From the sequence record PP418985.1: DNA of 64,000 bases; one strand, given 5' to 3'. Shown piece by piece: positions 13,951-32,798 of the stretch (the stretch's first letter is position 1; each line of letters opens with the position of its first letter). The DNA comes from Escherichia phage UPWr_E1. The position numbers and the translations under genes were made by a program. A model generated the notes under the pieces. It was not told where the DNA came from, did not search any database, and saw only the letters and a list, made by a program, of their open reading frames with translations.

Positions 13951-13979
13951 TTGACAATCGGATCTTGCCATAGCATAAT
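13951..13979 (+). promoter_or_regulatory. Early promoter
   Basis: TTGACA-17-CATAAT then conserved leader catcgaaacgg. Confidence 0.5.
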
Positions 13980-14003
13980 ACGCACATCGAAACGGAGGGA
14001 CAT

Positions 14004-14222: not shown

Positions 14223-14231
14223 AAAAAGTAG

Positions 14232-14261
14232 TTGACACTGAATAACGGGGGGTAGTAATAT
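14232..14261 (+). promoter_or_regulatory. Early promoter with -10 inside hairpin (PeSL-like)
   Basis: TTGACA; hairpin ggggg-tagtaatata-ccccc containing TAATAT. Confidence 0.5.
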
Positions 14262-14294
14262 ACCCCCATCGAAACGAAACAAAGGAGAATCAAA

Positions 14295-14513
14295 ATGAAA
14301 TTTACTTGCACCGACTCTATCAACAAACACTTTGTAGTAGGCGAAGTATACGAATCTACTACCATTCGCCAGCGTGACCTGATGGGTCGCCTTTACAATC
14401 AGCCAGTATTCATTATTGGCGAAGAATTGTTCTACATTGAAAACCGTCCGTGGGTTGCTTTCAATAAACGAGGACGCAAGGTAGCAAAATTCGAACTTGT
14501 CATTAAAAAGTAG
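14295..14513 (+). CDS. Hypothetical protein, 72 aa
   Basis: ORF with RBS aaggagaatcaaa. Confidence 0.5.
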   Translation: MKFTCTDSINKHFVVGEVYESTTIRQRDLMGRLYNQPVFIIGEELFYIENRPWVAFNKRGRKVAKFELVIKK

Positions 14514-14542
14514 TTGACAGCATGAAACGGGGGTAGTAATAT
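14514..14542 (+). promoter_or_regulatory. Early promoter with -10 inside hairpin (PeSL-like)
   Basis: TTGACA-17-TAATAT, near-identical to the cassette at 14232. Confidence 0.5.
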
Positions 14543-14583
14543 ACCCCCATCGAAACGAAACTAACTTACTAAGGAGTATCAAG

Positions 14584-14982
14584 ATGATTAAATTTCAAAC
14601 TCGCAAAGACGTTCTGGATTTCGTTAAAGTTTTCGGTTACGCTGCATTGCAACATGCAATGGACAAAATGACCATCTCCCCAGATCAGACTATGCTGATC
14701 CGTATGGTTAAAGCAACCGCCTACAAAAACGACATTACCCTCTCAGAAATCAACGACGGTAATACTGTCCGCGAGGTAATTGTTTCTTTCGAATCACCGA
14801 AAATTGGCGGTTTTCATACCACGATGTTAGGTGAAATCACTGTCACTGTATACGGGCAAGGTGGAGGAGTGTTTACCGTCAAAGAAGCAATGGAAAACGG
14901 AACACTGAACAAAGAAAAACTGGAATTTGTCCTGAAAATCATCAAGGAGCGTAACGAAGCTCGCGATATTCTGGAAAGTTAA
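14584..14982 (+). CDS. Hypothetical protein, 132 aa
   Basis: ORF with RBS aaggagtatcaag. Confidence 0.55.
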   Translation: MIKFQTRKDVLDFVKVFGYAALQHAMDKMTISPDQTMLIRMVKATAYKNDITLSEINDGNTVREVIVSFESPKIGGFHTTMLGEITVTVYGQGGGVFTVKEAMENGTLNKEKLEFVLKIIKERNEARDILES

Positions 14983-22365: not shown

Positions 22366-22378
22366 TTCAAAAAAGTTG

Positions 22379-22407
22379 TTGACAGGGGATCACCGATCCC
22401 CTATACT
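22379..22407 (+). promoter_or_regulatory. PeSL-type early promoter (hairpin spacer)
   Basis: TTGACA, 17-nt palindromic spacer ggggatcaccgatcccc, TATACT. Confidence 0.55.
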
Positions 22408-22441
22408 ACACACATACCGAAACGAACTAGGAGAATCAATT

Positions 22442-22621
22442 ATGAACTTCAACGAAATCATCGCTAAAATCCGCTACAACGAAGAAACCATTGAACTGAT
22501 GCAAAACAATATCACCAATGGCTATATGATTGCAGCGTCACAAGAAATCATTGATTTGACAGTAGCAGAAAATGCTCAGTTGAAACATCAACTTTCTACG
22601 GCTGGCGTGATTGTGATGTAA
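22442..22621 (+). CDS. Hypothetical protein, 59 aa
   Basis: ATG after conserved RBS aggagaatcaatt. Confidence 0.45.
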   Translation: MNFNEIIAKIRYNEETIELMQNNITNGYMIAASQEIIDLTVAENAQLKHQLSTAGVIVM

Positions 22622-22640
22622 TTTAACGAGAGGTAACTAA

Positions 22641-22907
22641 ATGAAGACAGTAAAAGATATCGTAGACAATCGCAAAGATGCAGTGGGTAAAATTTTTCAA
22701 TTACCAGAATCACCGATTGGACTTATTATCTACGTAACAGAAGATGATGTGTATGCTATTTGGAACGGCAACGATACATTCCACCCAGGAAACGGTCATC
22801 TGATCAATACTATGGAAGGTGAAGAACCACAACCAGTACACTTACTGGCACACAGTGTCACTATCGACGAACTGGAAGATGCAGCTAAACATATTCGGAG
22901 CATGTAA
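22641..22907 (+). CDS. Small protein, divergent member of HxHW paralog family
   Basis: 88 aa; IIYVTEDDVYAIW strand and His-rich segment. Confidence 0.45.
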   Translation: MKTVKDIVDNRKDAVGKIFQLPESPIGLIIYVTEDDVYAIWNGNDTFHPGNGHLINTMEGEEPQPVHLLAHSVTIDELEDAAKHIRSM

Positions 22908-22908
22908 C

Positions 22909-23229
22909 ATGGCAAAAGTTCAGGTAGGTGAAGTATTCAAAATGGCGGACCATACCGTAGAAGAGATGAAAGGTGCGGTACTGAAAGCAACCAATTCTAT
23001 GATGCGTAGTGTCCTTTACATCAACTTTATCGATGGTGATGTGTGGTGGGCTAGCGATAGTTGCAAATGGGATGAAGATTGTAACTTGGTTATCAAGTTC
23101 GGCAAAGGTCATAATCACTGGCTAGGAACAGAGGATGTTGTAGAAGTGCTGGCGGTTGATATTATGCCTAGCGAGATCGATAATCTTACTGGAACTGCAA
23201 ACGAAGTATTGACACGACATTTTGTGTAA
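22909..23229 (+). CDS. HxHW-family small protein
   Basis: 106 aa; YINFIDGD..GHNHW..VLAVDI. Confidence 0.5.
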   Translation: MAKVQVGEVFKMADHTVEEMKGAVLKATNSMMRSVLYINFIDGDVWWASDSCKWDEDCNLVIKFGKGHNHWLGTEDVVEVLAVDIMPSEIDNLTGTANEVLTRHFV

Positions 23230-23286
23230 TGTAATATAACAATCATTGGGAGGGGCAATACTCTCCCACAAATTGAGGATAATATT

Positions 23287-23589
23287 ATGGAACGTACCAA
23301 TTTGTTTGTAACCGAACCTTTCGTTGAAGGCAACAAGAACCTTGCTAATACGGTTATTCTTTACGAAGATTGGATCTTTTACATCGATGAGAATTTAGAT
23401 GTATATTGTCGTCCAACTCCAAATGACTCATTCTATATCGAAGAAAACGATACCCATAATCATTGGTATGACGGAAACGACGAAACCGATCTTGCTATTG
23501 TTCTCGAATCCGGCGTAGAATCGGAACATGCCGATGAAGTAGCAGACAAATTTATGAAATACGCATATAAAGATAAAGATGAAGAATAA
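23287..23589 (+). CDS. HxHW-family small protein
   Basis: 100 aa; FYIDENLDVY..THNHW..LAIVLE. Confidence 0.5.
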   Translation: MERTNLFVTEPFVEGNKNLANTVILYEDWIFYIDENLDVYCRPTPNDSFYIEENDTHNHWYDGNDETDLAIVLESGVESEHADEVADKFMKYAYKDKDEE

Positions 23590-23596
23590 AAAGTTG

Positions 23597-23625
23597 TTGA
23601 CAGGGGATCGGTGATCCCCTATAAT
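23597..23625 (+). promoter_or_regulatory. PeSL-type early promoter
   Basis: TTGACA, palindromic spacer ggggatcggtgatcccc, TATAAT. Confidence 0.55.
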
Positions 23626-23659
23626 GCACACATACCAACGAGATATAGGAGAATCAAAA

Positions 23660-23827
23660 ATGTTCCAGACTAAAGCAGAATGCGAAGCATACATTGTAGC
23701 AAACCACGGTGAAGACTACCTGAAATTCGATATCGTAGTAGCACAGAAGATCACCGGAATGGTTGCAAAATATCTGGGTGTTAAAGAAGGTTACTATCCA
23801 AGCAACGCACCGGAAATTAACAAATAA
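23660..23827 (+). CDS. Hypothetical protein, 55 aa
   Basis: ATG after RBS aggagaatcaaaa. Confidence 0.45.
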   Translation: MFQTKAECEAYIVANHGEDYLKFDIVVAQKITGMVAKYLGVKEGYYPSNAPEINK

Positions 23828-23830
23828 TAG

Positions 23831-23859
23831 TTGACAATGATTAAAGGGAGTAGTAAGAT
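23831..23859 (+). promoter_or_regulatory. PeSL-type early promoter
   Basis: TTGACA; hairpin gggag-tagtaagata-ctccc containing -10. Confidence 0.5.
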
Positions 23860-23892
23860 ACTCCCATCAAGACAACAAACGGAGAATCAAAA

Positions 23893-24072
23893 ATGAAAGC
23901 TATCGAAGTTCAGAAGTACATGGAAATCATCGTTGAAGGTAAAGCACATACAGTATTGACTACTCACGTAGGATATGATAAAAATGTGCATATGCTGGTA
24001 GACAATATCGGTTGGATGAAGTTTAATCCTAACGAGAATGTACAAGCTCAAGAAATGACCATCCCTTTCTAA
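23893..24072 (+). CDS. Hypothetical protein, 59 aa
   Basis: ATG after RBS ggagaatcaaaa; below track cutoff. Confidence 0.4.
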   Translation: MKAIEVQKYMEIIVEGKAHTVLTTHVGYDKNVHMLVDNIGWMKFNPNENVQAQEMTIPF

Positions 24073-24084
24073 GAGGAATATATT

Positions 24085-24363
24085 ATGATGCGAATTACTG
24101 CAACACTGGATAAGACACACAAAGAAAGATTTTTCGGTATGATCTTAAAAACGCCGATTTTCGATAATTACCTTTATGTTGACTATGAAGGTCACATTAG
24201 CTATAAATGTAAAAATGATATTCGTGATTCCTTTGGTGATAAATCACAAGCTGATATTCATGACCACTGGTGGACCTTCGACGAACCTTTACGGATTATC
24301 GCAGTTGATGTAAAAACAATAAAAGAAGCTGATAAGGTAGTTAACAATTATGAGCAAATTTAA
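24085..24363 (+). CDS. HxHW-family small protein
   Basis: 92 aa; LYVDYEGHISY..IHDHWW..IIAVDV. Confidence 0.5.
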   Translation: MMRITATLDKTHKERFFGMILKTPIFDNYLYVDYEGHISYKCKNDIRDSFGDKSQADIHDHWWTFDEPLRIIAVDVKTIKEADKVVNNYEQI

Positions 24364-24559
24364 AGATTATAAAGCATATCAACAGATCCTGCGAGTATAC
24401 GAACCAGAGTTCGCCGAAAAGATGATGGAAGATGCATCAAAATGCCCGTCCTTTTCTGGAAACAAAAACCATTATTCGACTGGTATTGTGTCATGGAAAG
24501 AAACCGCATATACTCAACAATGGATAGATGTGTTTTCAAAAACTCTTGAGTGGTGTTAA
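24350..24559 (+). CDS. Small protein, 69 aa (MSKFKDY paralog 1)
   Basis: MSKFKDYKAY...MMEDA...W.VF; tandem paralog of next ORF. Confidence 0.5.
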   Translation: MSKFKDYKAYQQILRVYEPEFAEKMMEDASKCPSFSGNKNHYSTGIVSWKETAYTQQWIDVFSKTLEWC

Positions 24560-24561
24560 TT

Positions 24562-24777
24562 ATGAGCAAATTTAAAGATTATCGAGCATATAAAGCGATC
24601 TGCGATATATTCGATGAAAAGACCGCTCATGCAATGATGGAAGATGCAGAACAATATGAATCATTCGTCAATTCCAAAGATTGCACAGTAAACGGGATTG
24701 TGTGCTGGAAAGATACAAAGTATGAAGAAAAATGGATTACCGTGTATTACGGAGAACTAGAATATGAAATTAACTAA
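24562..24777 (+). CDS. Small protein, 71 aa (MSKFKDY paralog 2)
   Basis: MSKFKDYRAY...MMEDA; tandem paralog of previous ORF. Confidence 0.5.
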   Translation: MSKFKDYRAYKAICDIFDEKTAHAMMEDAEQYESFVNSKDCTVNGIVCWKDTKYEEKWITVYYGELEYEIN

Positions 24778-25066
24778 AAAGATTTTCCCAGAATTGCGTA
24801 ACTGTCTGTTATTGGTTACTGAATATAAGCCGTATACGATCTACTTGTATGTTGATGAAAATCTGAAAATCCGTTACTATGATTATACGTCTCCAGTGAT
24901 GAAATCATTTGCTCACTCGATAGCAAATAACTGTATGAATCATAATCATTGGGTATCAGAAACGGATGACGATGCGTCAGAAGTTGTAGTGGTTGCATGG
25001 AATCTATCACCAGCGGAAGCAGATCAAGCACGCATTAAGCATTATGCGAAAAAACAATTGGTTTGA
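24764..25066 (+). CDS. HxHW-family small protein
   Basis: 100 aa; LYVDENLKIRYY..NHNHW..VVVVAW. Confidence 0.5.
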   Translation: MKLTKKIFPELRNCLLLVTEYKPYTIYLYVDENLKIRYYDYTSPVMKSFAHSIANNCMNHNHWVSETDDDASEVVVVAWNLSPAEADQARIKHYAKKQLV

Positions 25067-25089
25067 CCTTATAAGTGAGGACTAATATT

Positions 25090-25368
25090 ATGTTCAAAGT
25101 AGGTGATAAGTTTATTCTTAGTCGTGATATTCTCCCTAATCTGAAAGGTTGTATCATCAATCCTAGTAAAAATTCATGGTTTTATCTGTTTATCGACGAT
25201 TCTCTAAATGTACGCGCCGAATATAAAGAAGGTCTTCGTACTGGCCTCGGTTTCTTTCACGATCACGATCATAGCCATTGGCTAAACGGTGGATTCGAAG
25301 CAACGGTGCTAGCGGTTGATGTGACCTACACAAACATCATAGAAAAATACCAAAAAATTATTTTATAA
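25090..25368 (+). CDS. HxHW-family small protein
   Basis: 93 aa; LFIDDSLNV..HDHDHSHW..VLAVDV. Confidence 0.5.
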   Translation: MFKVGDKFILSRDILPNLKGCIINPSKNSWFYLFIDDSLNVRAEYKEGLRTGLGFFHDHDHSHWLNGGFEATVLAVDVTYTNIIEKYQKIIL

Positions 25369-25374
25369 AAAGTG

Positions 25375-25403
25375 TTGACATAAGATCGGGTGTATAGCAT
25401 AAT
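25375..25403 (+). promoter_or_regulatory. PeSL-type early promoter
   Basis: TTGACA; hairpin gggtgtat-agcataa-tacaccc containing CATAAT. Confidence 0.55.
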
Positions 25404-25449
25404 ACACCCATCGAAACGAGATACACTTTCTAACTAGGAGAATCAAATT

Positions 25450-25737
25450 ATGGCATACATCACTATCACGCTGAAAGTTAACAAATTTGCTCACGCTGCA
25501 CACGAAACCGATAATGCAATCCGTAACAACAAGTTTGCACGTCTGGTACGCGATGCAGTAGCTAAAGAGTTCAACTTCAAATTTGCAGATGGTAAAGTTA
25601 TCACTAAATGGACTCATGGCGGCGAAACTAAAGTAGAACTTGCTGATAACTTCGCAAATCAGGAATATGCACACCGTCGCATTAATGAAATTATCAGCGA
25701 CGAACTCTACTACGGTGTACAGGAAGGACTGTTTTAA
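25450..25737 (+). CDS. Hypothetical protein, 95 aa
   Basis: ORF after conserved leader and RBS. Confidence 0.5.
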   Translation: MAYITITLKVNKFAHAAHETDNAIRNNKFARLVRDAVAKEFNFKFADGKVITKWTHGGETKVELADNFANQEYAHRRINEIISDELYYGVQEGLF

Positions 25738-25743
25738 TATATG

Positions 25744-25764
25744 GGGGCGTTAACGCCCCTTTTC
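25744..25764 (+). terminator. Rho-independent terminator
   Basis: ggggcg-ttaa-cgcccc followed by tttt. Confidence 0.6.
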
Positions 25765-25787
25765 ATCCAACTATTGAGGATAATACT

Positions 25788-26093
25788 ATGAAAGATAATA
25801 TCTTTGAATTTACCCGCGAAAATCTCCCAATGTTCCGAAAGTCTCTGCTTAAACTAGATAACAGTAATTATGATGTATATTTTTACATCACAGAAGACCT
25901 AGAGATCCTTTACGCTGATTACCCTGGTCCGATCCGTACTTTCGAAAAAGCATCAAAGTATAAAAATGTGCACGGTCACACGCACTGGCTACGAGAAAAT
26001 TCAGTCAAGAAAGCGCGCGTTAAAGTGATTGCAATTGACGTAACGCCGGAACATGCTGACCGGATTGCACAGAATGATTATTTGTCTAAATGA
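25788..26093 (+). CDS. HxHW-family small protein
   Basis: 101 aa; YFYITEDLEILY..HGHTHW..VIAIDV. Confidence 0.5.
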   Translation: MKDNIFEFTRENLPMFRKSLLKLDNSNYDVYFYITEDLEILYADYPGPIRTFEKASKYKNVHGHTHWLRENSVKKARVKVIAIDVTPEHADRIAQNDYLSK

Positions 26094-26101
26094 TTTTATT
26101 A

Positions 26102-26124
26102 GCCGACCTTAGTGTCGGCTTTTT
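26102..26124 (+). terminator. Rho-independent terminator (copy 1 of repeated cassette)
   Basis: gccgac-cttagt-gtcggc followed by ttttt; identical hairpin at 26607. Confidence 0.65.
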
Positions 26125-26151
26125 ATTGCCAAAAATTTTTTAAAAAAGGCA

Positions 26152-26180
26152 TTGACACCAGATCCTGTATATAGCATAAT
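26152..26180 (+). promoter_or_regulatory. Early promoter
   Basis: TTGACA-17-CATAAT then acacccatcgaaacga leader. Confidence 0.5.
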
Positions 26181-26207
26181 ACACCCATCGAAACGAGATT
26201 GAGGGAA

Positions 26208-26393
26208 ATGAAGATGAAGATTTTATACAAGCATGGATGGTATAAAGTAAAAGCTATCGCCGATGGAGTCAAATATGAAGTGATTGTATTTGACGGATTC
26301 AACACTTATTGCGAAGATGTTAAATTGCCTTCAATGGGATGTGCTTATGATTATTGCAAACAAAGAATTGATAATAAAGCCAACTGCTTCTGA
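26208..26393 (+). CDS. Hypothetical protein, 61 aa
   Basis: ATG after RBS gaggga; 4 Cys residues. Confidence 0.45.
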   Translation: MKMKILYKHGWYKVKAIADGVKYEVIVFDGFNTYCEDVKLPSMGCAYDYCKQRIDNKANCF

Positions 26394-26606
26394 CCCGCTA
26401 AATGACGTAGAACCGCCAACTTGCAAAGCGGACTGTCCTTATAGACAAGAATTTAGGGGGGTATGATTTGCAAAGAAATGCTCTAAGAACCGAAACGGTT
26501 AGCATGGTCAGCAAATATCGATGCGGTTGGAATATTAAGCCTGGTAGGATTGGCGGTCATCCTCTAGATTATGAGGCTTGCATATATAGCAAGAATTTTA
26601 AAATGT

Positions 26607-26630
26607 GCCGACCTTAGTGTCGGCTTTTTT
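26607..26630 (+). terminator. Rho-independent terminator (copy 2 of repeated cassette)
   Basis: gccgac-cttagt-gtcggc followed by tttttt. Confidence 0.65.
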
Positions 26631-26654
26631 ATTTCCAAAAAATTAAAAAAGTTG

Positions 26655-26683
26655 TTGACACCTGATCACGCCTATAGCATAAT
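26655..26683 (+). promoter_or_regulatory. Early promoter
   Basis: TTGACA-17-CATAAT. Confidence 0.5.
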
Positions 26684-26723
26684 ACACACATCGAAACGAG
26701 ATACCACTTAGGAGAATCAAACA

Positions 26724-26993
26724 ATGGCACTGACTAAAACCACTACCAGCTTTGCAAAACGTCACGGTTTCGACCTTGAAATCAATAGCTTTGAAGATTA
26801 CACCCTTCTGTGTGTATATGAAATCGAAAATGATTGCGAGTGGATGTTCAGCTATCGCGTAAACGAAGACGGATCTTTCACTTGGAACGGAAATATCTAT
26901 CTTGCACAGGAAGTAAAAGAAGAACTTCCGGCGACTATCAAAGATGAGAAACATTTACGTCAAGTTTTAAAATTTATTTCTGAAAATATCTAA
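26724..26993 (+). CDS. Hypothetical protein, 89 aa
   Basis: ORF after RBS taggagaatcaaaca. Confidence 0.5.
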   Translation: MALTKTTTSFAKRHGFDLEINSFEDYTLLCVYEIENDCEWMFSYRVNEDGSFTWNGNIYLAQEVKEELPATIKDEKHLRQVLKFISENI

Positions 26994-27002
26994 AAAAAGT
27001 TG

Positions 27003-27031
27003 TTGACACCAAAGTAAGAACATAGCATAAT
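27003..27031 (+). promoter_or_regulatory. Early promoter
   Basis: TTGACA-17-CATAAT. Confidence 0.5.
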
Positions 27032-27064
27032 ACACCCATACCGAAACGAACGGGAGAATCAAAA

Positions 27065-27346
27065 ATGAAATTCATCAAAGCAACCGAAATCCTGAAAAAC
27101 AAAGAAGCATACATCGGAAACATCGTTGGTATGAACATTCGCGGCGCGGGTAGCCAGTGGACCAAACTGGTTGATGTTAAAGCTAAAGGCGATAAAATCG
27201 AGTTCACTGTAAAAATGCTTACTCATAACGCACATATGGGTATCAAGACAAAAACTATGGCAGCAGATAAAAGCATCAACTATCAAGACCTGGGCGATTG
27301 GCTGAACTGGTGCAAAATGTACAACATCGAAACTAATCACGAATAA
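27065..27346 (+). CDS. Hypothetical protein, 93 aa
   Basis: ORF after RBS gggagaatcaaaa. Confidence 0.5.
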   Translation: MKFIKATEILKNKEAYIGNIVGMNIRGAGSQWTKLVDVKAKGDKIEFTVKMLTHNAHMGIKTKTMAADKSINYQDLGDWLNWCKMYNIETNHE

Positions 27347-27360
27347 TTTTAAAAAAGTTG

Positions 27361-27390
27361 TTGACGGGGGATCGGGAGATCCCCTATAAT
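27361..27390 (+). promoter_or_regulatory. PeSL-type early promoter
   Basis: TTGACG, palindromic spacer ggggatcgggagatcccc, TATAAT. Confidence 0.55.
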
Positions 27391-27430
27391 ACACACATCA
27401 AGACGAGATACTACTTAGGAGAATCAAACA

Positions 27431-27682
27431 ATGGCTAACATCGAAACCGCAAAGAAAATCGCTAAAGACCTGAACGTTAAAGGCTTCCGTAAACTGAAAT
27501 TACAGCGTGTACGCTACACCATCGGCAAACAGTGCTCTTTCATGAGCGAAGAAGTTGCTAACAGCCTCATCGATAATCTGATTGCGGCTGGCTGGGAAGT
27601 TGCGGATCTGAAAACTTGCCGCGAACTGGCTAACAAAGGTCTTTTAGATTCTGTTACTATCAAACCAATGGGGGCAGCGTGA
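27431..27682 (+). CDS. Hypothetical protein, 83 aa
   Basis: Starts MANIE, sharing its first 16 nt with ORF 29565. Confidence 0.5.
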   Translation: MANIETAKKIAKDLNVKGFRKLKLQRVRYTIGKQCSFMSEEVANSLIDNLIAAGWEVADLKTCRELANKGLLDSVTIKPMGAA

Positions 27683-28395
27683 AACAAAAATTAATATTCT
27701 GCAACTTTGACGGATCGGGGATAATGGGGCTAGAATGGGCTAAAGCAGGTCATAAGGTGATCTGCTTTAATGCTGACGATGGCGACCACGGTACATACAA
27801 AAAATATAATACCCGATTTGAACATCCAAACATTACCTATGTAAACACATGGATTGATTTGAACTGGCTGGAAAGAGCAATGGACCTTGAATGGGGGAAA
27901 CCGGATATTATATTTGCATTCCCACCGTGCACCAATTTAGCTGTTAGTGGCGCTGCACACTTTGAACGAAAGAAACGAGAGCAAGGACCATTAATTCAAG
28001 TTCATGATGTAAGGGCAGCTAAAATAACCGCTTATTTGGGCGAATGGTTAGGAGTTCCCTACATGATAGAGAATCCTGTAAGCGTTATCTCTAGCATGTG
28101 GCGTAAGCCTGATTATATGTTCCATCCGTGGGAATATGGCGGTTATTTGCCGGAAGATGATAAACATCCTACGTTTCCTGAGTATATTGCCGCCCGTGAT
28201 ATGTACCCGAAAAAGACTTGCTTATGGACCGGACAAGGCTTTATAATGCCAGAAAAGAAACCGTTGCAGATTAATAAAGGGTACAGTAAACAGCATTCTA
28301 AGCTAGGCGGGAAAGGAACCAGAACAAAGACTATCAGGTCACTTACACCGCGAGGATTCGCAAAGGCAGTATTTGAAGCCAATAAGGATCTATGA
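27679..28395 (+). CDS. DNA (cytosine-5)-methyltransferase-like protein
   Basis: 238 aa; motif I-like FDGSGIMGLEWAKAGHKVICFNADD, motif IV-like FPPCTNLAVSG, motif VI-like ENP; short for a complete C5-MTase. Confidence 0.4.
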   Translation: MKQKLIFCNFDGSGIMGLEWAKAGHKVICFNADDGDHGTYKKYNTRFEHPNITYVNTWIDLNWLERAMDLEWGKPDIIFAFPPCTNLAVSGAAHFERKKREQGPLIQVHDVRAAKITAYLGEWLGVPYMIENPVSVISSMWRKPDYMFHPWEYGGYLPEDDKHPTFPEYIAARDMYPKKTCLWTGQGFIMPEKKPLQINKGYSKQHSKLGGKGTRTKTIRSLTPRGFAKAVFEANKDL

Positions 28396-28724
28396 TGAGA
28401 TTGTTTAAGTATTCGCTAACGTCAAATTACGATAAACAAGGTCATTGCATCCGTTGCCCTGATTGCCATAGCCATAACATCGAAAGCAGGATCACCGATC
28501 ATATTGATGGACTTTGGTCGCCAGCAAGCGAGATAGAATACTATTGCGCTGATTGCGGAATTGTAGTAGCATATTGGGCATACGGATCATATGATCCCTA
28601 CTTCCAGATGGGAGAGCGTTCAATCCCTGCGCTTATCTGGAGAATTAAGAACAATATCCGCCATTCATGGGATGAGTTCTTAAAAGATATTGATTTACGT
28701 GATGATCCATTCAGGAGACTATAA
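28392..28724 (+). CDS. Zinc-ribbon protein, 110 aa
   Basis: CIRCPDCHSH ... CADCG cysteine pairs. Confidence 0.45.
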   Translation: MMRLFKYSLTSNYDKQGHCIRCPDCHSHNIESRITDHIDGLWSPASEIEYYCADCGIVVAYWAYGSYDPYFQMGERSIPALIWRIKNNIRHSWDEFLKDIDLRDDPFRRL

Positions 28725-28725
28725 C

Positions 28726-29244
28726 ATGAACCGTTTAACACCTAAACGCCGTTACTATACCAATACTAAAAACTTTGTCATCTCTGTTTATGAGGCGTGG
28801 TTAGAAGATGGCTATATCAACATGAACCCAGATTATCAGCGTCCTTTAGTATGGGACACCGAAAACAAACGTATGTTTATCGAAAACCTGATTAATGATT
28901 TTCCGGTTGGTGCTATCGCAATGGCTAAGATTGATGATGGCTCTCGCTATGAGATCGAAATCGTGGACGGTAAACAGCGTTTAAACGCAATATTCTCCTT
29001 TATGAAGGATGAGTTTAGCATTGCTGGTAATGATGATTCTATGCTGTATTACAGTGATTTTACGCCAGCAGAAAAGCGACGTTTCCGAAATCTCGGACTA
29101 CCCGCGATCATGATGGAAGAGAGCACAAGAGAAGACCGATTAGAGTATTTCTACAAAACAAACTTTTTCGGTGTTCCTCAATCGGAAGAACATCGCCAGC
29201 ATGTGATTGCCCTATTGCAAGATGAGCAATTAAAAAATAACTAA
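28726..29244 (+). CDS. DUF262 / ParB-like nuclease-domain protein
   Basis: 172 aa from ATG after RBS caggaga; NPDYQRPLVW and VDGKQRLNAI match the DUF262 signature (compare DGQQR). Confidence 0.45.
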   Translation: MNRLTPKRRYYTNTKNFVISVYEAWLEDGYINMNPDYQRPLVWDTENKRMFIENLINDFPVGAIAMAKIDDGSRYEIEIVDGKQRLNAIFSFMKDEFSIAGNDDSMLYYSDFTPAEKRRFRNLGLPAIMMEESTREDRLEYFYKTNFFGVPQSEEHRQHVIALLQDEQLKNN

Positions 29245-29252
29245 AAAAGTTG

Positions 29253-29281
29253 TTGACAGGGGATCATCGATCCCCTATAAT
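29253..29281 (+). promoter_or_regulatory. PeSL-type early promoter
   Basis: TTGACA, palindromic spacer ggggatcatcgatcccc, TATAAT. Confidence 0.55.
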
Positions 29282-29313
29282 ACACACATACCGAAACGAA
29301 AGGAGAATCAAAC

Positions 29314-29493
29314 ATGAAACACTTAACCATCGAATCGGCAATCATCGCAATCGCTAAAGTTCAAGCGGCTTATAATTGCACTGACATTGAAGCCATTTCA
29401 AAAATGCAAGCAGAAGCCGCAAAAGCAGGTGACGAGAAATCTTTAGATGTTCTCTGCGAAATCAAAGCAGAATTAATTTCAAAAATGTTCTAA
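29314..29493 (+). CDS. Hypothetical protein, 59 aa
   Basis: ATG after RBS aaggagaatcaaac; below track cutoff. Confidence 0.4.
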   Translation: MKHLTIESAIIAIAKVQAAYNCTDIEAISKMQAEAAKAGDEKSLDVLCEIKAELISKMF

Positions 29494-29499
29494 AAGTTG

Positions 29500-29528
29500 T
29501 TGACATAACAGAGGGTGTATATCATAAT
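29500..29528 (+). promoter_or_regulatory. PeSL-type early promoter
   Basis: TTGACA; hairpin gggtgtat-atcataa-tacaccc containing CATAAT. Confidence 0.55.
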
Positions 29529-29564
29529 ACACCCATACCGAAACGAACTACTAAGGAGTATCAA

Positions 29565-29777
29565 ATGGCTAACATCGAAATCATCGTTACCGACGTAACT
29601 TATGACCGCATCAATGAAATCGGTACTGCTTTGCTAGAAGATGGAACAACTCGCACCATCAACTACGCAGAATACGTTGAAATGCGCGGTTGGATTAAAC
29701 GAGTAGGAAAATATATCCTGATTGAAAAAGACTATTCAGGATACACCTTAGAGCAATTGCTTGATGGTGCATTATAA
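29565..29777 (+). CDS. Hypothetical protein, 70 aa
   Basis: Starts MANIE; RBS aaggagtatcaa. Confidence 0.5.
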   Translation: MANIEIIVTDVTYDRINEIGTALLEDGTTRTINYAEYVEMRGWIKRVGKYILIEKDYSGYTLEQLLDGAL

Positions 29778-29843: not shown

Positions 29844-31895
29844 ATGTTTAACTTAGAAATCGACGATCTAATGATTGAATCTTTCGAGAAATGGCTGTTG
29901 ACGGAAGAGGAAGAAAACTTTGGTAGTATTGCTCCGGTACAGTGCTTAAAGCCTAAGCAGAACCCTAAACAGCTTTTTGCAGTACAGACACGCGATAAAG
30001 ATGTGATTGTCCGTCTTTGTAACTTCACCAACAAAACACCTAAAATCATTCGTCTTGGTGACAAGACCGCACATGTTGTACTGTGCGAAATGAACAAAAG
30101 CGGTCGTATTGTACAGCTTAAAAATGGTCTAGGCGATAACCCGATTGCAGTTATGGCAAGTGCTTTTGATGTGGTTATGGAAACAGCCCGTAAAGCGCAA
30201 TTAGACGCTGTTATGTTCCGTTTTAACGTATCCCGCATGAAAGGTAAGACCGAACTGGTTAAGCGCGTTATAGAGCGTTTGGTGCGTCGTACACCTAAGT
30301 TTGAAGTATTCCAGCAGGAAGTAATGACCAGCAAAAAGATCGCTTTAGTTGTTGTCAAGCGTCGCGGGATGGCGATTGATAAGATTAAAGGGATTAAACT
30401 TGATGATTCCCTGTTCACTAAAGTAGAAAGTGATTTAGGTGATCGCTGGGTATCTAAAGCTACTGGCGAATCTCTGACTAAAGATGAAGCGTATGCGGCT
30501 AGCCTTGCATCAGAAGAAGAACGAAACGCAGAAGCGGAACAACGTGTAGCGGCTAAGTCTCGTTTGACTAAAGAAGAAATGCTGAAAACTCAAGCGACCT
30601 ATAACAGCGACTATGTGAATCATCCAGAAAAAATTAATCTTAAACCGGAAGAAGATATCACCGAAGCCGAACCTAAGAAACAGTTTAATACTCTGATTGA
30701 TCGTCAAGCCTTAGAACGTTCAACCGCTCGTTCTCTGAATGACTGGACAAGTGATATTATCACTCGCTACGGTTTCATGCGTACTATTTTTGAAAGCGAA
30801 GCCGATGCAAAATACGCAGTAAGCGAACTGGTAAAAGTTCAGGACCAATATGATCCGTTGTCTGCGGAAGTTATTGCAGCATCAATCAAACGCTTAAAAG
30901 AAATCATGAGCGAGGAAGTATTCGAAAACAAGATCACCGCCCTGGCAATGGATCGAGTAGACCAGTCTATGCCAGCAGATGTAAAAGCTGAAATGCTTCG
31001 TAGTCACATCACACAGATTAAAACCGATGCCCTACGTAATGTTGCTTCCGGTATGTTTGAAGCAATTGCTAGCAACATGGGTGAAATGATGGCAAATATT
31101 GATCTTGATCTGCCGGGCGCGGAAGGTTTTGTGTTGAGCGAATATGCCGATGCAGCATACATCAATATGAACAACTTCCTAACCGACCGTAAGCTGGAAG
31201 AGTTTGACGGCATCGCAGATCCAGAAGAATTGGTCAAGATGTGCGATGCACTGGATAATGCCTTCTCTAACTATGGCGTTAAACTTGATCCGGGTACTAT
31301 TCTGTATCGTGGTATGGACTTCCGGTCTCAAATGTGGGAAACTGCACGTAAGCAAAAAGCGTTTTACTTTAAAAACTATGTGAGCACTTCCCTTGCACCT
31401 AACATTTTTGGTGGCTGGAATGCAAACGTGGCTAGTGCCGTTGCTGGTGTAGATTCTATGGCTGGATCTCGCGGTGAAGGTGGCGCTAATGTTGCTTTCT
31501 CCATTGCTGGCGCGGAAAACATCCCTGTATTGCCAGTAGGTAACAAGGCATTTGCTTACAAAGAATGCGAGATTTTACTTCCTCGCGGTGTTGTGTTATC
31601 CTTTGATACGGTAACTCGTGCTACGGCATCGACGGATTCACAAGAAACTTATTACATTGAGGCACATATTATGAACAAAAATGAACTGGCAGCATTACAA
31701 GAATCTGGCGAGATGATCGCGGACGGTGATGCATTCATCCGTGAAGGTGTTGTTAAACCTGCTTCTGACCTGTCTTTCTCCAGCTTTATTACCGAAGCTA
31801 AAACCGAACGTAAGAAAGCAGATAAGGCAACTCTACGTCAGCTTATCGCTGATCTGGTATCTGTAGACGCAATGCCAGATAAATTTAAAATGTAA
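29844..31895 (+). CDS. alt: Alt-like ADP-ribosyltransferase (packaged, modifies host RNA polymerase in T4)
   Basis: 683 aa (T4 Alt is 682 aa); C-terminal R-S-E type ART motifs LYRG, YVSTSL, ECEILLP. Confidence 0.7.
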   Translation: MFNLEIDDLMIESFEKWLLTEEEENFGSIAPVQCLKPKQNPKQLFAVQTRDKDVIVRLCNFTNKTPKIIRLGDKTAHVVLCEMNKSGRIVQLKNGLGDNPIAVMASAFDVVMETARKAQLDAVMFRFNVSRMKGKTELVKRVIERLVRRTPKFEVFQQEVMTSKKIALVVVKRRGMAIDKIKGIKLDDSLFTKVESDLGDRWVSKATGESLTKDEAYAASLASEEERNAEAEQRVAAKSRLTKEEMLKTQATYNSDYVNHPEKINLKPEEDITEAEPKKQFNTLIDRQALERSTARSLNDWTSDIITRYGFMRTIFESEADAKYAVSELVKVQDQYDPLSAEVIAASIKRLKEIMSEEVFENKITALAMDRVDQSMPADVKAEMLRSHITQIKTDALRNVASGMFEAIASNMGEMMANIDLDLPGAEGFVLSEYADAAYINMNNFLTDRKLEEFDGIADPEELVKMCDALDNAFSNYGVKLDPGTILYRGMDFRSQMWETARKQKAFYFKNYVSTSLAPNIFGGWNANVASAVAGVDSMAGSRGEGGANVAFSIAGAENIPVLPVGNKAFAYKECEILLPRGVVLSFDTVTRATASTDSQETYYIEAHIMNKNELAALQESGEMIADGDAFIREGVVKPASDLSFSSFITEAKTERKKADKATLRQLIADLVSVDAMPDKFKM

Positions 31896-31912
31896 TTTTT
31901 AAGAAATAATGG

Positions 31913-31941
31913 TTGACTCAAACGGGGACTAGTTTTATACT
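31913..31941 (+). promoter_or_regulatory. Early promoter embedded in terminator-like hairpin
   Basis: TTGACT-17-TATACT; hairpin cggggactag...ctagccccg followed by tttt may also terminate alt transcripts. Confidence 0.45.
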
Positions 31942-31973
31942 AGCCCCGTTTTCTGTTATATGGGAGGTTTAAA

Positions 31974-32798
31974 ATGTTCAAACAATTACAGGATTTTCGT
32001 CTTTCAGAAGAATCACGCGAATCAATGATGGAACGTATGGATAATTACATCGAAACATATGGCATTGAGGGGATTAATGGTTACATGATCACTGAGATGA
32101 TCAGCGATCAGATTAACTTTGATGATTATGTGAAGATTATCCGCTTCCTTGAGCGCGAGACACAAGATTATGGATTTGTCAAGAAAATCATTAATGTGAT
32201 GTATGAAGTACACTCCGAAGATTTTGGAGATAATGTATTCAAATATTACAAACATAACAACATAACCCCCGCAGAATATAATGCAATCTGTGATTATGTG
32301 TCTGAACAATACGAATGGGTAAATGGTGCTCTCTTAGGCGAGGAAGACATGACCGACGAGATATCAGAGATTGTCGATTTGATGGATTGTGTCATGGATA
32401 AAACCGAAAAGTTAAACGGTACTCTTTATCGTGGTCAACATCTTGACATTCAAACAATAGAGCGTATTATTGAAGATAAGGAATTTACCTTTAAAAACTT
32501 TGTGTCGACCAGCATGACACCGATCATTTTTGGAGGATGGCTTTCAAACAGCACTAGCCTTTATTGTGAGAATCGATATGAATCGATGACCGGAAAGATG
32601 CAACATTCTTGTAATGTATCATGGGTAATTGACGTAAAAGATCATAAAGGTTTTGTTGTTGGGTCGATTGCATGGAATCCTTGCGAATGTGAAGTAATTT
32701 TACCGCGCGGGACTTGCATAAAGGTAAACGACGTAGTAGAATCCTTCGGCGATGAGAATCGTAGACAATTTACAATTTTCGGTGAGGTGACTAAATGA
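31974..32798 (+). CDS. ADP-ribosyltransferase, Alt C-terminal domain paralog
   Basis: 274 aa; GTLYRG, FKNFVSTSMTPIIFGGW, CECEVILPRG aligns to Alt catalytic domain. Confidence 0.6.
   Translation: MFKQLQDFRLSEESRESMMERMDNYIETYGIEGINGYMITEMISDQINFDDYVKIIRFLERETQDYGFVKKIINVMYEVHSEDFGDNVFKYYKHNNITPAEYNAICDYVSEQYEWVNGALLGEEDMTDEISEIVDLMDCVMDKTEKLNGTLYRGQHLDIQTIERIIEDKEFTFKNFVSTSMTPIIFGGWLSNSTSLYCENRYESMTGKMQHSCNVSWVIDVKDHKGFVVGSIAWNPCECEVILPRGTCIKVNDVVESFGDENRRQFTIFGEVTK

What the first reader, a model, noticed from the sequence alone, without database searches (positions are those of the whole stretch)
22366..29540. Array of conserved early-expression cassettes with a hairpin in the promoter spacer (PeSL-like)
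At least 20 sites share a roughly 75-bp cassette: A-rich upstream tract, GTTGACA, a 16-18 nt spacer that is itself a GC-rich palindrome or hairpin (for example ggggatcaccgatcccc or gggtgtatagcataatacaccc), TATAAT/CATAAT, a conserved leader acacacatc/cgaaacga, and RBS aggagaatcaaa before the ATG. Copies also occur at 6430, 6813, 11687, 13951, 14232, 14514, 31913 and 47744. Three sites (6379, 26102, 26607) add a terminator directly upstream. This matches the promoter-early stem-loop elements described for RB49-like T4-type phages. The RBS contains GGAG, the cleavage motif of T4 RegB, which would apply only if this phage encodes regB.
Basis: partly seen in the sequence, partly recalled or inferred. 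Interest (0 to 1): 0.55.

Follow-up and report, generated by a model that had tools for sequence, protein, structure and literature searches.

The report
Known PeSL promoter–hairpin cassettes, RB49-type phage
The repeated ~80-bp units are real, but they are the promoter-early stem-loop (PeSL) cassettes already described and partly tested in phages RB49 and phi1, here in a close relative, so the finding is a correct recognition of something known.

Summary
The window comes from a Krischvirus (RB49/phi1/GEC-3S group, 93-98% identical). The flagged interval is the hyperplastic region between DNA ligase/HNH and alt, the same region where Arbiol et al. 2010 defined PeSLs and tested three of them. 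I find 11 cassettes in the interval and about 21 in the window, all on the + strand. Each has an A-rich tract, a near-perfect TTGACA-N16-18-TATAAT/CATAAT promoter, a conserved leader, the site GGAGAATCAAA and an ATG. The hairpin lies inside the spacer in only 5 of the 21. In 6 it straddles the -10, and 10 have no strong internal hairpin. Across 12 genomes the hairpin is retained in orthologous cassettes, with compensatory stem changes. Internal hairpins and upstream intrinsic terminators are mutually exclusive (0/23 versus 9/16), which fits an insulator or terminator role. Four of seven indels between genomes break inside cassettes. Close relatives encode RegB, and the cassette ribosome-binding site matches the 11-nt RegB/S1 target at 10 of 11 positions, only at the first gene after a cassette. 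The PeSL papers do not mention that point. Verdict: real, correctly interpreted, already known, low interest.

The parts
22366..22444 (+). Cassette 1. A-tract; -35 at 22379-22384; spacer hairpin AGGGGATCaccGATCCCCT at 22384-22402; -10 TATACT at 22402-22407; leader; GGAGAATCAAT at 22430-22440; ATG 22442 (ORF209 homologue).
   Evidence: MFE -12.8 to -13.8, z -2.6 to -4.1. This cassette is the breakpoint of the ORF210 presence/absence difference.
23209..23289 (+). Variant cassette. -35 at 23209; -10 TAATAT at 23232-23237; hairpin downstream in the leader (GGGAG...CTCCC, 23248-23267); GAGG-type ribosome-binding site; ATG 23287.
   Evidence: Corresponds to the published subclass with the stem-loop downstream of the -10.
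23577..23662 (+). Cassette homologous to phi1 PeSL206/205. -35 at 23597; spacer hairpin GGGGATCggtGATCCCC at 23602-23620; -10 TATAAT at 23620-23625; GGAGAATCAAA at 23648-23658; ATG 23660.
   Evidence: The phi1 orthologue gave about 13,000 Miller units as a promoter (PMC2839356).
23820..23895 (+). Cassette. -35 at 23831; stem GGGAGTA/TACTCCC at 23846-23865, straddling the -10 TAAGAT (23854-23859); GGAGAATCAAA at 23881-23891; ATG 23893.
   Evidence: MFE -12.2 to -12.6, z about -3.5 to -4.0. Hairpin kept in 11 of 12 genomes.
25355..25452 (+). Cassette. -35 at 25375; stem GGGTGTAT/ATACACCC at 25388-25409, straddling the -10 CATAAT (25398-25403); GGAGAATCAAA at 25437-25447; ATG 25450 (ORF198 homologue).
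   Evidence: MFE -13.8, z -3.7 to -4.9. Orthologues carry the compensated stem GGGGATAT/ATATCCCC.
26101..26216 (+). Cassette with an upstream intrinsic terminator (AGCCGACCttagtgTCGGCT + T-run, 26101-26125). -35 at 26152; -10 CATAAT at 26175-26180; degenerate internal stem; GAGGGA ribosome-binding site; ATG 26208/26214.
   Evidence: Left copy of the duplicated terminator-plus-promoter that bounds the ORF195/196 block.
26607..26726 (+). Cassette with an upstream intrinsic terminator (GCCGACCttagtgTCGGC + T-run, 26607-26630). -35 at 26655; -10 CATAAT at 26678-26683; no internal hairpin; GGAGAATCAAA at 26711-26721; ATG 26724.
   Evidence: Right copy bounding the ORF195/196 block.
26984..27067 (+). 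Cassette with neither a hairpin nor an upstream terminator. -35 at 27003; -10 CATAAT at 27026-27031; GGAGAATCAAA at 27053-27063; ATG 27065 (ORF193 homologue).
   Evidence: MFE 0 to -2, z about 0. Hairpin-less in all 12 genomes.
27341..27433 (+). Chimeric cassette. -35 TTGACG at 27361; spacer hairpin GGGGGATCgggaGATCCCCT at 27366-27385; -10 at 27385-27390; GGAGAATCAAA at 27418-27428; ATG 27431 (ORF190 homologue).
   Evidence: The 5' half matches PeSL193/191 of relatives and the leader matches PeSL191/190. ORF191 is missing here and in phage Brandy.
29234..29316 (+). Cassette. -35 at 29253; spacer hairpin GGGGATCatcGATCCCC at 29258-29276; -10 TATAAT at 29276-29281; GGAGAATCAAA at 29302-29312; ATG 29314.
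29483..29567 (+). Cassette. -35 at 29500; stem GGGTGTAT/ATACACCC at 29513-29534, straddling the -10 CATAAT (29523-29528); GGAGTATCAAA at 29555-29565; ATG 29565.
   Evidence: In OZ035808 and KFS-EC it is fused with the preceding cassette and ORF186 is absent.
6379..6489 (+). Outlying cassette: upstream terminator (AGCCTCCCttcgGGGAGGCT + T-run) followed by the promoter at 6430; ATG 6487.
6795..6874 (+). Outlying cassette: promoter at 6813, no strong hairpin, ATG 6872.
11670..11749 (+). Outlying cassette: promoter at 11687 with spacer hairpin GCGGGGAgaaaTCCCCGC; ATG 11747.
   Evidence: MFE -15.1, z -4.5.
13917..14006 (+). Outlying cassette: upstream terminator (GTCGCCcatagtGGCGAC + T-run) followed by the promoter at 13951; ATG 14004.
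14215..14297 (+). Outlying cassette: promoter at 14232; stem GGGGGTA/TACCCCC straddling the -10 TAATAT; GGAGAATCAAA; ATG 14295.
14497..14586 (+). Outlying cassette: promoter at 14514; the same -10-straddling stem; GGAGTATCAAG; ATG 14584.
31895..31976 (+). Outlying cassette downstream of alt: promoter at 31913 with a long stem straddling the -10. It is the only internal hairpin followed by a U-tract (CCCCGTTTTCTGTT). ATG 31974.
   Evidence: MFE -18.9, z -4.0 to -6.2.
47710..47814 (+). Outlying cassette: upstream terminator (GCCATCCttcgGGGTGGC + T-run), promoter at 47744, small leader hairpin; ATG 47812.

Best explanation
These are PeSLs (promoter-early stem-loops), the composite regulatory cassettes of RB49-type T4-like phages. 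Each unit is a self-contained early-expression module placed in front of a small accessory gene or short operon.

(1) Promoter. An A-rich UP-like tract and a near-perfect sigma-70 -35/-10 recruit unmodified host RNA polymerase immediately after infection. This is shown for orthologues in the literature and inferred here from sequence identity.

(2) Stem-loop. A G(n)-loop-C(n) stem-loop sits in the spacer or across the -10, and its 3' arm ends just before the predicted +1. It is therefore absent from the cassette's own transcript and present only in RNA reading through from upstream. There it acts as a terminator or attenuator that insulates each unit. A canonical upstream terminator substitutes for it in other copies. 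One phi1 stem-loop has been tested; the rest is inferred here from covariation and from the mutual exclusivity with upstream terminators.

(3) Leader and ribosome-binding site. A short, weakly structured leader ends in GGAGAAUCAAA. This is both the Shine-Dalgarno sequence and a near-consensus RegB/S1 cleavage site, so the first gene of each unit is probably switched off after transcription once RegB accumulates. This step is inferred.

(4) Recombination. Because about 80-100 bp are nearly identical between copies, the cassettes serve as sites of homologous recombination that delete, insert and swap the flanked ORFs. This is visible directly in the comparison of 12 genomes.
For: Identity of the region: 93-98% identity to Krischviruses, and the interval equals phi1 ORF212..185. 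The published PeSL definition and assays are in PMC2839356. The follow-up paper PMC4122927 gives TTGACA-N17-TATAAT and a G(n)-loop-C(n) stem for RB49/phi1.

Promoter: far above chance and restricted to one strand. GEC-3S annotates 10 promoters at the homologous sites. The RB49 early consensus, with T or C at -12 and C at -3 to -1, agrees with 5' end mapping of early transcripts (PMC1524935).

Stem-loop:
- MFE -12 to -19 kcal/mol, z between -2.4 and -6.2.
- Hairpin status is conserved within each orthologue group in 12 genomes, through different stems.
- Covariation: 3 of 8 pairs changed on both sides, 97% of cells paired, score 0.288 against 0.087, 0 of 500 shuffles as high, and the signal collapses when partners are slid. 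The second register shows an AU/GC swap.
- Internal hairpin and upstream canonical terminator never co-occur: in GEC-3S 0 of 23 hairpin-bearing cassettes against 9 of 16 hairpin-less ones have an upstream terminator (Fisher p = 5e-5). In the window the figures are 0 of 11 against 4 of 8.

RegB:
- GGAGAATCAAA matches GGAGRAYARAA at 10 of 11 positions.
- 8 of 17 cassette-first genes match at 10/11 or better, against 0 of 45 internal genes.
- A RegB homologue is present in GEC-3S and RB49 RegB is reported active.
- The 11-mer is mostly unpaired in predicted leaders.

Recombination: 4 of 7 indels in this region break inside cassettes (ORF210, ORF195/196, ORF191, ORF186). The cassette at 27361 is a 5'/3' chimera of two cassettes found in relatives.
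Against: - Ten of 21 cassettes have no strong internal hairpin, and 4 of the 8 scored also lack an upstream terminator (for example 27003, hairpin-less in all 12 genomes). The stem-loop is therefore not obligatory.
- Apart from 31913, the internal hairpins are not followed by a U-tract: 1-3 U in the next 8 nt, and 1 U for the stems that straddle the -10. The consensus terminator scan did not call them on the + strand. Termination has been shown experimentally for a single spacer-type stem-loop in a lacZ reporter and never for the -10-straddling type.
- The cassette site has C at position 8, where A is strongly preferred in T4 RegB/S1 sites. RB49 RegB is divergent and differs from T4 RegB in its activity on GGAG/GGAU motifs.
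- Copies are paralogous and exchange sequence, so the Fisher tests overstate independence.
- The covariation sets were selected by predicted structure.
- regB, and indeed the rest of this particular genome, lies outside the window.
Confidence: 0.9

Rival explanations
1. The stem-loop acts on RNA as a 3'-end stabiliser or processing signal for upstream messages rather than as a terminator. Read-through transcripts are cut downstream, for example by RegB or RNase E, and then trimmed back to the hairpin.
For: Internal hairpins lack U-tracts (sequences; not called on the + strand). They lie in read-through RNA only, 25-45 nt upstream of a RegB-like site. RB49 transcripts are reported to be processed by both RegB and RNase E (my own recollection of Piesiniene et al. 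2004; that paper was not read here).
Against: The phi1 PeSL211/210 stem-loop reduced downstream lacZ as much as rrnB T1, which is more easily explained by termination. The mutual exclusivity with canonical terminators suggests functional equivalence. A terminator hairpin also stabilises 3' ends, so the two roles do not exclude each other.
Confidence: 0.2
2. The palindromes are DNA-level control sites: operators for a dimeric phage or host protein, or Dam-methylation-sensitive spacers that tune promoter activity.
For: Four in-interval cassettes carry the perfect palindrome GGGGATCnnnGATCCCC with two GATC sites. GATC occurs 12 times in the 21 spacers against 2.1 expected, and also in hairpin-less cassettes (ccaGATC, cctGATC, taaGATC) at the same spacer position. 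GEC-3S encodes a dam methylase.
Against: Stem sequences differ widely between copies and orthologues (GGGGATC, GGGGAG, GCGGGGA, GGGTGTAT, GGGGATAT, GCGGTTAT) while pairing is preserved. That argues for structure rather than sequence-specific protein recognition. GATC is not depleted or enriched genome-wide beyond the Markov expectation (377 against 363). The enrichment in spacers can be explained by common descent of the copies.
Confidence: 0.08
3. The hairpin has no function of its own. The cassettes are simply very strong sigma-70 promoters kept alike by duplication and gene conversion, and the GC palindromes hitch-hike.
For: Half of the cassettes lack a hairpin. Copies are near-identical and visibly chimeric. 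Broken stems are tolerated in FL20 and kaaroe.
Against: Compensatory double changes at 3 of 8 stem pairs. Hairpin status is conserved per locus in 12 genomes. Internal hairpins never co-occur with upstream terminators. The reporter result is published.
Confidence: 0.07
4. The palindromes work mainly as DNA hairpins or cruciforms that trigger the recombination responsible for cassette shuffling.
For: Indel breakpoints lie in cassettes. The loop variants acc and ggt are reverse complements of each other in otherwise identical orthologous cassettes, as expected from hairpin-mediated loop inversion. The authors report that the stem-loops block sequencing polymerase on single-stranded template.
Against: Stems of 7-8 bp are short for cruciform extrusion. 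Published mini-circle crossovers map between the -10 and the SD/ATG, or in the AT-rich tract, not at the stem. The chimera at 27361 also switches between the -10 and the leader. Hairpin-less, terminator-type cassettes bound an indel too (26101/26607). The loop flip could equally be a short gene conversion from another cassette.
Confidence: 0.08

Closest known systems
PeSL (promoter-early stem-loop) cassettes of coliphages RB49 and phi1 (Arbiol et al. 2010, PMC2839356; Comeau et al. 2014, PMC4122927)
   Same: Same phage genus and the same hyperplastic region (ORF212..ORF185). Same architecture: AT-rich tract, TTGACA-N17-TATAAT/CATAAT, a G(n)-loop-C(n) stem between -35 and -10, overlapping the -10, upstream or downstream, then SD and ATG. 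Same density (11 in about 7 kb here; 8 in about 5 kb in the paper). Same association with indels and chimeric cassettes.
   Different: Nothing essential. This genome shows further allelic states: ORF210, ORF207, ORF191/192 and ORF189.1 are absent, while the ORF195/196 block and an extra 88-aa ORF are present. Three points noted here are not mentioned in the two papers (text searches): internal hairpins and upstream terminators are mutually exclusive, the ribosome-binding site resembles a RegB/S1 site, and GATC recurs in the spacers.
T4 early promoters and RegB/S1 target sites (Durand et al. 2006, PMC1702504; Uzan and Miller 2010, PMC3014915)
   Same: Strong early promoters with A-rich upstream tracts. 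GGAG Shine-Dalgarno sequences of early genes followed by an A-rich stretch. The cassette's GGAGAAUCAAA against the consensus GGAGRAYARAA, and against the commonest T4 site GGAGAAUAAAA.
   Different: The -35 is TTGACA rather than T4's GTTTAC. There is no MotA or middle mode in RB49. The site has C at position 8. RB49 RegB is divergent. Cleavage at these particular sites has not been shown.
Rho-independent (intrinsic) terminators
   Same: GC-rich stem-loops at the ends of transcription units. The upstream terminators at 6379, 13917, 26101, 26607 and 47710, and the hairpin at 31913, are canonical.
   Different: The hairpins that lie in the spacer or straddle the -10 lack the U-tract (1-3 U in 8 nt) and are embedded in the next promoter.
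Repeated promoter or terminator 'boundary sequences' that mediate module exchange in other phages (for example the PmSL/PeSL variants of T4/PST and KVP40/nt-1 in Comeau et al. 2014)
   Same: Short conserved regulatory repeats between accessory genes that act as recombination sites.
   Different: Different promoter consensus (TTTACW or TTGYVH) and different stem consensus in those phages.

Membership tests
PeSL (Arbiol et al. 2010) | AT-rich tract upstream of the -35 that holds the stop codon of the upstream gene | tested here: met
   The 30 nt upstream are 77-87% A+T in 9 of 11 in-interval cassettes and 63% in 23209 and 23831, against 59% for the window. Stop codons are visible in the tracts.
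PeSL (Arbiol et al. 2010) | Near-consensus sigma-70 promoter, TTGACA-N17-TATAAT | tested here: met
   10-12 of 12 hexamer matches with a 17-18 nt spacer in all 11 in-interval cassettes. 8 against 0.04 expected for the strict pattern.
PeSL (Arbiol et al. 2010) | Stable G(n)-loop-C(n) stem-loop in one of five positions relative to the promoter | tested here: met
   10 of 11 in-interval cassettes: 4 in the spacer, 3 across the -10, 2 upstream (terminators), 1 downstream in the leader. Cassette 27003 has none. Window-wide, 11 internal hairpins and 5 upstream terminators among about 21 cassettes.
PeSL (Arbiol et al. 2010) | Shine-Dalgarno sequence and start codon of the downstream ORF at the 3' end | tested here: met
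   All 11 end in an SD and ATG 26-50 nt after the -10.
PeSL (Arbiol et al. 2010) | Located in hyperplastic regions in front of ORFans, co-oriented with early genes | tested here: met
   The interval lies between ligase/HNH and alt. The downstream ORFs are 'hypothetical' in all records, and six paralogues have no Pfam match. All cassettes are on the + strand.
PeSL (Arbiol et al. 2010) | Association with insertions, deletions and replacements between related genomes; chimeric cassettes at junctions | tested here: met
   4 of 7 indels break in cassettes. Cassette 27361 is a chimera.
PeSL (Arbiol et al. 2010) | Promoter activity in vivo | not testable with these tools
   Literature only: phi1 PeSL206/205, the orthologue of the cassette at 23597, gave about 13,000 Miller units. 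The RB49 early consensus agrees with 5' end mapping.
PeSL (Arbiol et al. 2010) | Terminator or attenuator activity of the stem-loop | not testable with these tools
   Literature: the stem-loop of PeSL211/210 reduced lacZ as much as rrnB T1. Indirect support here comes from covariation and from exclusivity with canonical terminators.
PeSL (Arbiol et al. 2010) | Formation of mini-circles by recombination between neighbouring cassettes | not testable with these tools
   Needs inverse PCR on infected cells. The deletion alleles seen here (ORF210, ORF191/192) are the products that model predicts.
RegB/S1 cleavage site | [quoted passage not shown] | tested here: inconclusive
   10 of 11 positions match in 8 cassettes, with C instead of A at position 8. 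Mean predicted unpaired probability of the 11-mer is 0.59. No cleavage data exist for these sites.
RegB/S1 cleavage site | The phage encodes RegB | tested here: inconclusive
   regB is not in the window. It is present in the 93-94% identical GEC-3S (Pfam REGB_T4, 1.1e-48) and reported for RB49. Its presence in this genome is inferred.
Intrinsic terminator | GC-rich stem-loop immediately followed by a U-tract | tested here: not met
   Applies to the internal (spacer and -10) hairpins: 1-3 U in the 8 nt after the stem, and not called on the + strand by the scan. The feature is met by the upstream terminators at 6379, 13917, 26101, 26607 and 47710, and by 31913.

The most novel reading that the evidence does not exclude
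The PeSL is a three-function mobile timer rather than a two-function promoter-terminator. Its conserved 3' module GGAGAAUCAAA would be a dedicated RegB/S1 cleavage site found only at the first gene after each cassette. Any ORF captured between two cassettes would then automatically acquire early ON (sigma-70 promoter), insulation (exactly one hairpin or terminator per unit) and programmed OFF (RegB). A weaker add-on is that the recurrent GATC at spacer positions 4-7 makes these promoters sensitive to Dam methylation.
Probability: 0.4. Interest if true: 0.3.

Novelty: already known. Interest (0 to 1): 0.15.

Why it matters
The finding matters mainly as a check on the first-stage reader, which recognised from sequence alone a documented class of phage regulatory and recombination cassettes. 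PeSLs are thought to drive the modular gain and loss of accessory genes in T4-type phages, many of which are used or proposed for therapy.

This genome adds further alleles of the best-studied PeSL region. Three small refinements could be tested cheaply:
- There is one insulator per cassette, either an internal hairpin or an upstream terminator, never both.
- The hairpin ends just before +1, so it acts only on read-through RNA.
- The cassette-specific ribosome-binding site is a near-consensus RegB/S1 site.

None of these changes the picture of what the elements are.

Tried and rejected
- A scan of IMG/VR viral contigs with the ORF198 leader, meant to collect many orthologous cassettes, returned a single contig. 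I fetched 11 annotated genome regions from GenBank phage records instead.
- Desplats et al. 2002, the paper with the RB49 5' end mapping, is not held. I relied on Nolan et al. 2006 citing it.
- An Rfam search of 21500-32500 at E <= 1 found nothing.
- Pfam on the downstream ORFs found nothing useful for the paralogue family.
- I considered whether the GGGGATC...GATCCCC palindromes are protein operators or Dam switches. This was rejected as the main explanation because stem sequences vary with compensation. GATC enrichment is kept as a side note.
- I considered hairpin-driven recombination. Published crossovers, and the chimera found here, map outside the stem.
- I considered filing the internal hairpins as plain intrinsic terminators. 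The U-tract criterion is not met.
- My first ORF coordinates for the paralogue alignment were out of frame and were corrected.

Full report
**Source and context.** A megablast of 22366-29540 hits 63 phage records. All are Krischviruses (RB49, phi1, JSE, GEC-3S, FL20, Brandy and others) at 80-99% identity, 58 of the 63 at 90% or more. A second search with one cassette plus its gene gives 92-98% identity, again only in this genus. The window's + strand is the reverse of the GenBank orientation. The flagged interval lies between DNA ligase/HNH endonuclease (HNH at 21889-22365) and alt (29844-31895). The phi1 record keeps the ORF numbers used by Arbiol et al. 2010. The interval corresponds to ORF212..ORF185, the hyperplastic region in which that paper defined PeSLs and tested PeSL206/205, PeSL193/192 and PeSL211/210.

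- GTTGACA-N15-19-TATAAT occurs 8 times against 0.04 expected.
- A looser promoter pattern occurs 26 times on the + strand and once on the - strand.
- Exact GGAGAATCAA occurs 9 times, always in a cassette ribosome-binding site on the + strand.

Filtering for intergenic sites followed by a leader, SD and ATG gives 11 cassettes inside the interval: 22379, 23209, 23597, 23831, 25375, 26152, 26655, 27003, 27361, 29253 and 29500. The whole window holds about 21. The three upstream terminators are confirmed, and there are two more, at about 13917 and 47710.

**Anatomy of the hairpin.** Folding the segment from the -35 to 14 nt past the -10 shows three situations (confirmed with the folding tool).
- Five cassettes have a palindrome wholly inside the spacer: GGGGATCnnn(n)GATCCCC at 22379, 23597, 27361 and 29253, and GCGGGGAgaaaTCCCCGC at 11687.
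- Six have a stem that straddles the -10, with the hexamer in the loop and the 3' arm immediately after it: GGGTGTAT/ATACACCC at 25375 and 29500, GGGGGTA/TACCCCC at 14232 and 14514, GGGAGTA/TACTCCC at 23831, and a long stem at 31913.
- Ten have no strong internal hairpin (MFE above -6 kcal/mol, z about 0).

The hairpin-bearing copies fold at -12 to -19 kcal/mol with z between -2.4 and -6.2. In both registers of the -10-straddling class the 3' arm ends 6 nt after the -10, just before the predicted +1. In the spacer class the stem lies upstream of the -10. In no case is the hairpin part of the cassette's own transcript, so it can form only in RNA arriving from upstream. Its second example (gggtgtatagcataatacaccc) includes the -10 hexamer itself.

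I grouped cassettes by the downstream gene, which is independent of structure. Hairpin status is a stable property of each locus.

| Group | Hairpin status across genomes |
|---|---|
| ORF209 | 12/12, with three stem types (GGGGATC-acc-, GGGGATC-ggga-, GGGGAG-gttaaa-) |
| ORF198 | 11/12: GGGTGTAT/ATACACCC in 7, the doubly compensated GGGGATAT/ATATCCCC in 4; FL20 carries a hybrid of the two arms with a weakened stem |
| ORF204 | 11/12 |
| ORF190 | 12/12, with two stem types |
| ORF193 | hairpin-less in 12/12 |
| ORF194 | hairpin-less in 10/11 |

The pair-count tool was run on 14 distinct stems of one register. It gave 97.3% of cells paired, 3 of 8 pairs with changes on both sides, 9 such cells, and a covariation score of 0.288 against 0.087 for shuffles (0 of 500 as high). 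Sliding the partner collapses the signal. The second register shows one AU/GC swap, 5 against 5. One caveat applies: these two sets were picked by predicted fold, which inflates the percentage paired but not the count of double changes.

**What the hairpin is for.** I classified cassettes by internal hairpin (MFE <= -9) and by a canonical terminator within 60 nt upstream.

| Set | Both | Hairpin only | Terminator only | Neither | Fisher p |
|---|---|---|---|---|---|
| 116 kb of GEC-3S | 0 | 23 | 9 | 7 | 5.4e-5 |
| Window | 0 | 11 | 4 | 4 | 0.018 |

The two sets are orthologous, and copies within a genome are paralogous, so the p-values overstate independence. Even so, the pattern 'never both' is clear. 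It fits the published view that the stem-loop terminates or attenuates transcription coming from the preceding unit, and that an upstream stem-loop is simply another PeSL subclass.

Two points count against a simple intrinsic-terminator mechanism. The internal hairpins lack a U-tract (1-3 U in the next 8 nt; only 31913 is canonical). They were also not called on the + strand by the consensus scan. Experimental support exists for one spacer-type stem-loop only (PeSL211/210 in a lacZ reporter).

**Promoter evidence.** I cannot test promoter activity. The orthologue of the cassette at 23597 (phi1 PeSL206/205) was a very strong promoter, giving about 13,000 Miller units. Most clones of such cassettes picked up -35 or -10 mutations. 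[quoted passage not shown] GEC-3S annotators marked 10 promoters at the homologous sites.

**Recombination.** Pairwise alignment of the window's region with five relatives, extended with the other genomes and the RB49 reference, gives seven indels.

Four have breakpoints inside cassettes:
- ORF210 is absent here; the junction is cassette 22379.
- The ORF195/196 block at 26199-26607 is bounded by a duplicated terminator plus promoter.
- ORF191 (and ORF192) are absent here and in Brandy.
- ORF186 is absent in OZ035808 and KFS-EC.

The cassette at 27361 is a chimera. Its -35, hairpin and -10 match PeSL193/191 of relatives and its leader matches PeSL191/190. This is the product predicted by the excision model, and its switch point lies where Arbiol et al. 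mapped mini-circle crossovers, between the -10 and the SD. The ORF193-ORF190 junction exists in at least four states among these genomes.

Three indels are not cassette-bounded: an 88-aa ORF at 22641-22907, ORF207 and ORF189.1.

**RegB.** The window does not contain regB. GEC-3S encodes a RegB homologue (Pfam REGB_T4, 1.1e-48), and the T4 post-transcriptional review reports a divergent regB in RB49 whose own SD sequence was found to be cleaved by RegB in vivo. Durand et al. define the RegB/S1 target as 11 nt, GGAGRAYARAA, with GGAGAAUAAAA the commonest T4 form. They state that the sites mapped in RB49 and three other relatives also have the A-rich tail.

The cassette's GGAGAAUCAAA matches at 10 of 11 positions, with C at position 8. 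On a crude gene call, GGAG is in the SD of 13 of 17 cassette-first genes against 9 of 45 internal genes. A match of 10/11 or better occurs in 8 of 17 against 0 of 45 (the paralogy caveat applies again). Predicted leaders are 26-40 nt long, weakly structured, and leave the 11-mer mostly unpaired.

Neither PeSL paper contains the words RegB, GATC, Dam or leader. This link may therefore be a small addition, but it remains an inference.

**Comparison with the known family, and verdict.** All sequence-level defining features of PeSLs are met, in the very region and genus where they were defined. The activity features cannot be tested here but have been shown for orthologues. The finding is therefore real, correctly interpreted and already known. 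The refinements above are incremental. Interest is low.

Noticed in passing
window 22909-23229, 23287-23589, 24085-24363, 24764-25066, 25090-25368, 25788-26093 (+): Six paralogous ORFs of about 92-106 aa (20-26% identity) share an invariant H-x-H-W motif and a conserved (V/I)(L/I)A(V)D(V) stretch. None has a Pfam family above threshold. They make up much of the cargo between cassettes.
   Followed up: partly
window 23248-23289 and 25733-25790 (+): A second repeated initiation module without a promoter: a GC hairpin (gggag..ctccc, or ggggcgttaacgcccc plus a T-run) followed by (A)ATTGAGGATAATA(T/C)TATG. The deletion of ORF207 in this genome has its breakpoint in the 17-bp repeat attgaggataatattatg (23273-23289).
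   Followed up: partly
window 23602-23620 compared with L012 (KFS-EC), L014 (W115) and L001 (GEC-3S) ORF205 cassettes: The 3-nt loops acc and ggt of GGGGATCnnnGATCCCC are reverse complements of each other. The window and KFS-EC/W115 cassettes are otherwise identical over 43 nt. This looks like a hairpin loop inversion, though a very short gene conversion is also possible.
   Followed up: partly
promoter spacers of window cassettes 13951, 22379, 23597, 25375, 26152, 26655, 27361, 29253: GATC occurs 12 times in the 21 spacers against about 2 expected. It is usually at spacer positions 4-7 and is also present in hairpin-less cassettes. Relatives encode a Dam methylase. The enrichment may be just common descent.
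   Followed up: partly
window 27431-27447 and 29565-29581 (+): Two different ORFs (the ORF190 and ORF185 homologues) start with the same five codons, MANIE (ATGGCTAACATCGAAA). This string repeats the conserved leader motif ACATCGAAAC, so cassette homology seems to extend into, or be echoed in, the coding sequence.
   Followed up: partly
L007 (FL20) 5236 and 9347; L010 (kaaroe) ORF204 cassette: Natural broken stems. FL20 has the 5' arm of one stem variant with the 3' arm of the other (GGGTGTAT/ATATCCCC, -7.5 kcal/mol), which implies a crossover within the loop/-10. kaaroe has a point change in the 3' arm (ACTCAC). Damaged hairpins are therefore tolerated.
   Followed up: no
window 24350-24559 and 24562-24777 (+): Tandem paralogous small ORFs that both begin ATGAGCAAATTTAAAGATTAT (MSKFKDY).
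   Followed up: no
window 27679-28395, 28392-28724, 28726-29244 (+): A promoter-less three-gene block. The first is annotated in relatives as a DNA (C-5 cytosine) methyltransferase but has no Pfam hit at E < 0.01. The second is a 110-aa protein with a weak zinc-ribbon match. The third is a 172-aa protein that is only a GmrSD_N/DUF262 domain (4e-20). The window lacks the ORF189.1 that precedes this block in all five relatives aligned.
   Followed up: partly
window 25410-25387 and 29534-29513 (- strand): The -10-straddling hairpins are called terminator-like on the opposite strand, where they are followed by a T-rich tail. They might also stop antisense transcription.
   Followed up: no
L006 (OZ035808.1 'Krischvirus RB49') compared with L016 (NC_005066.1 RB49): The assembly labelled Krischvirus RB49 lacks ORF192 and ORF186 of the RB49 reference, both at cassette-bounded sites. 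It is a different isolate or a derivative with a deletion.
   Followed up: partly
window 26199-26606 (+): The cassette-bounded ORF195/196 block holds only short overlapping ORFs (about 46-64 aa), some with TTG starts, and a weak GAGGGA ribosome-binding site. It is present in this window, in RB49 (both records), Brandy, W115 and MIZ2, and absent from phi1, GEC-3S and FL20. Its coding status is unclear.
   Followed up: no
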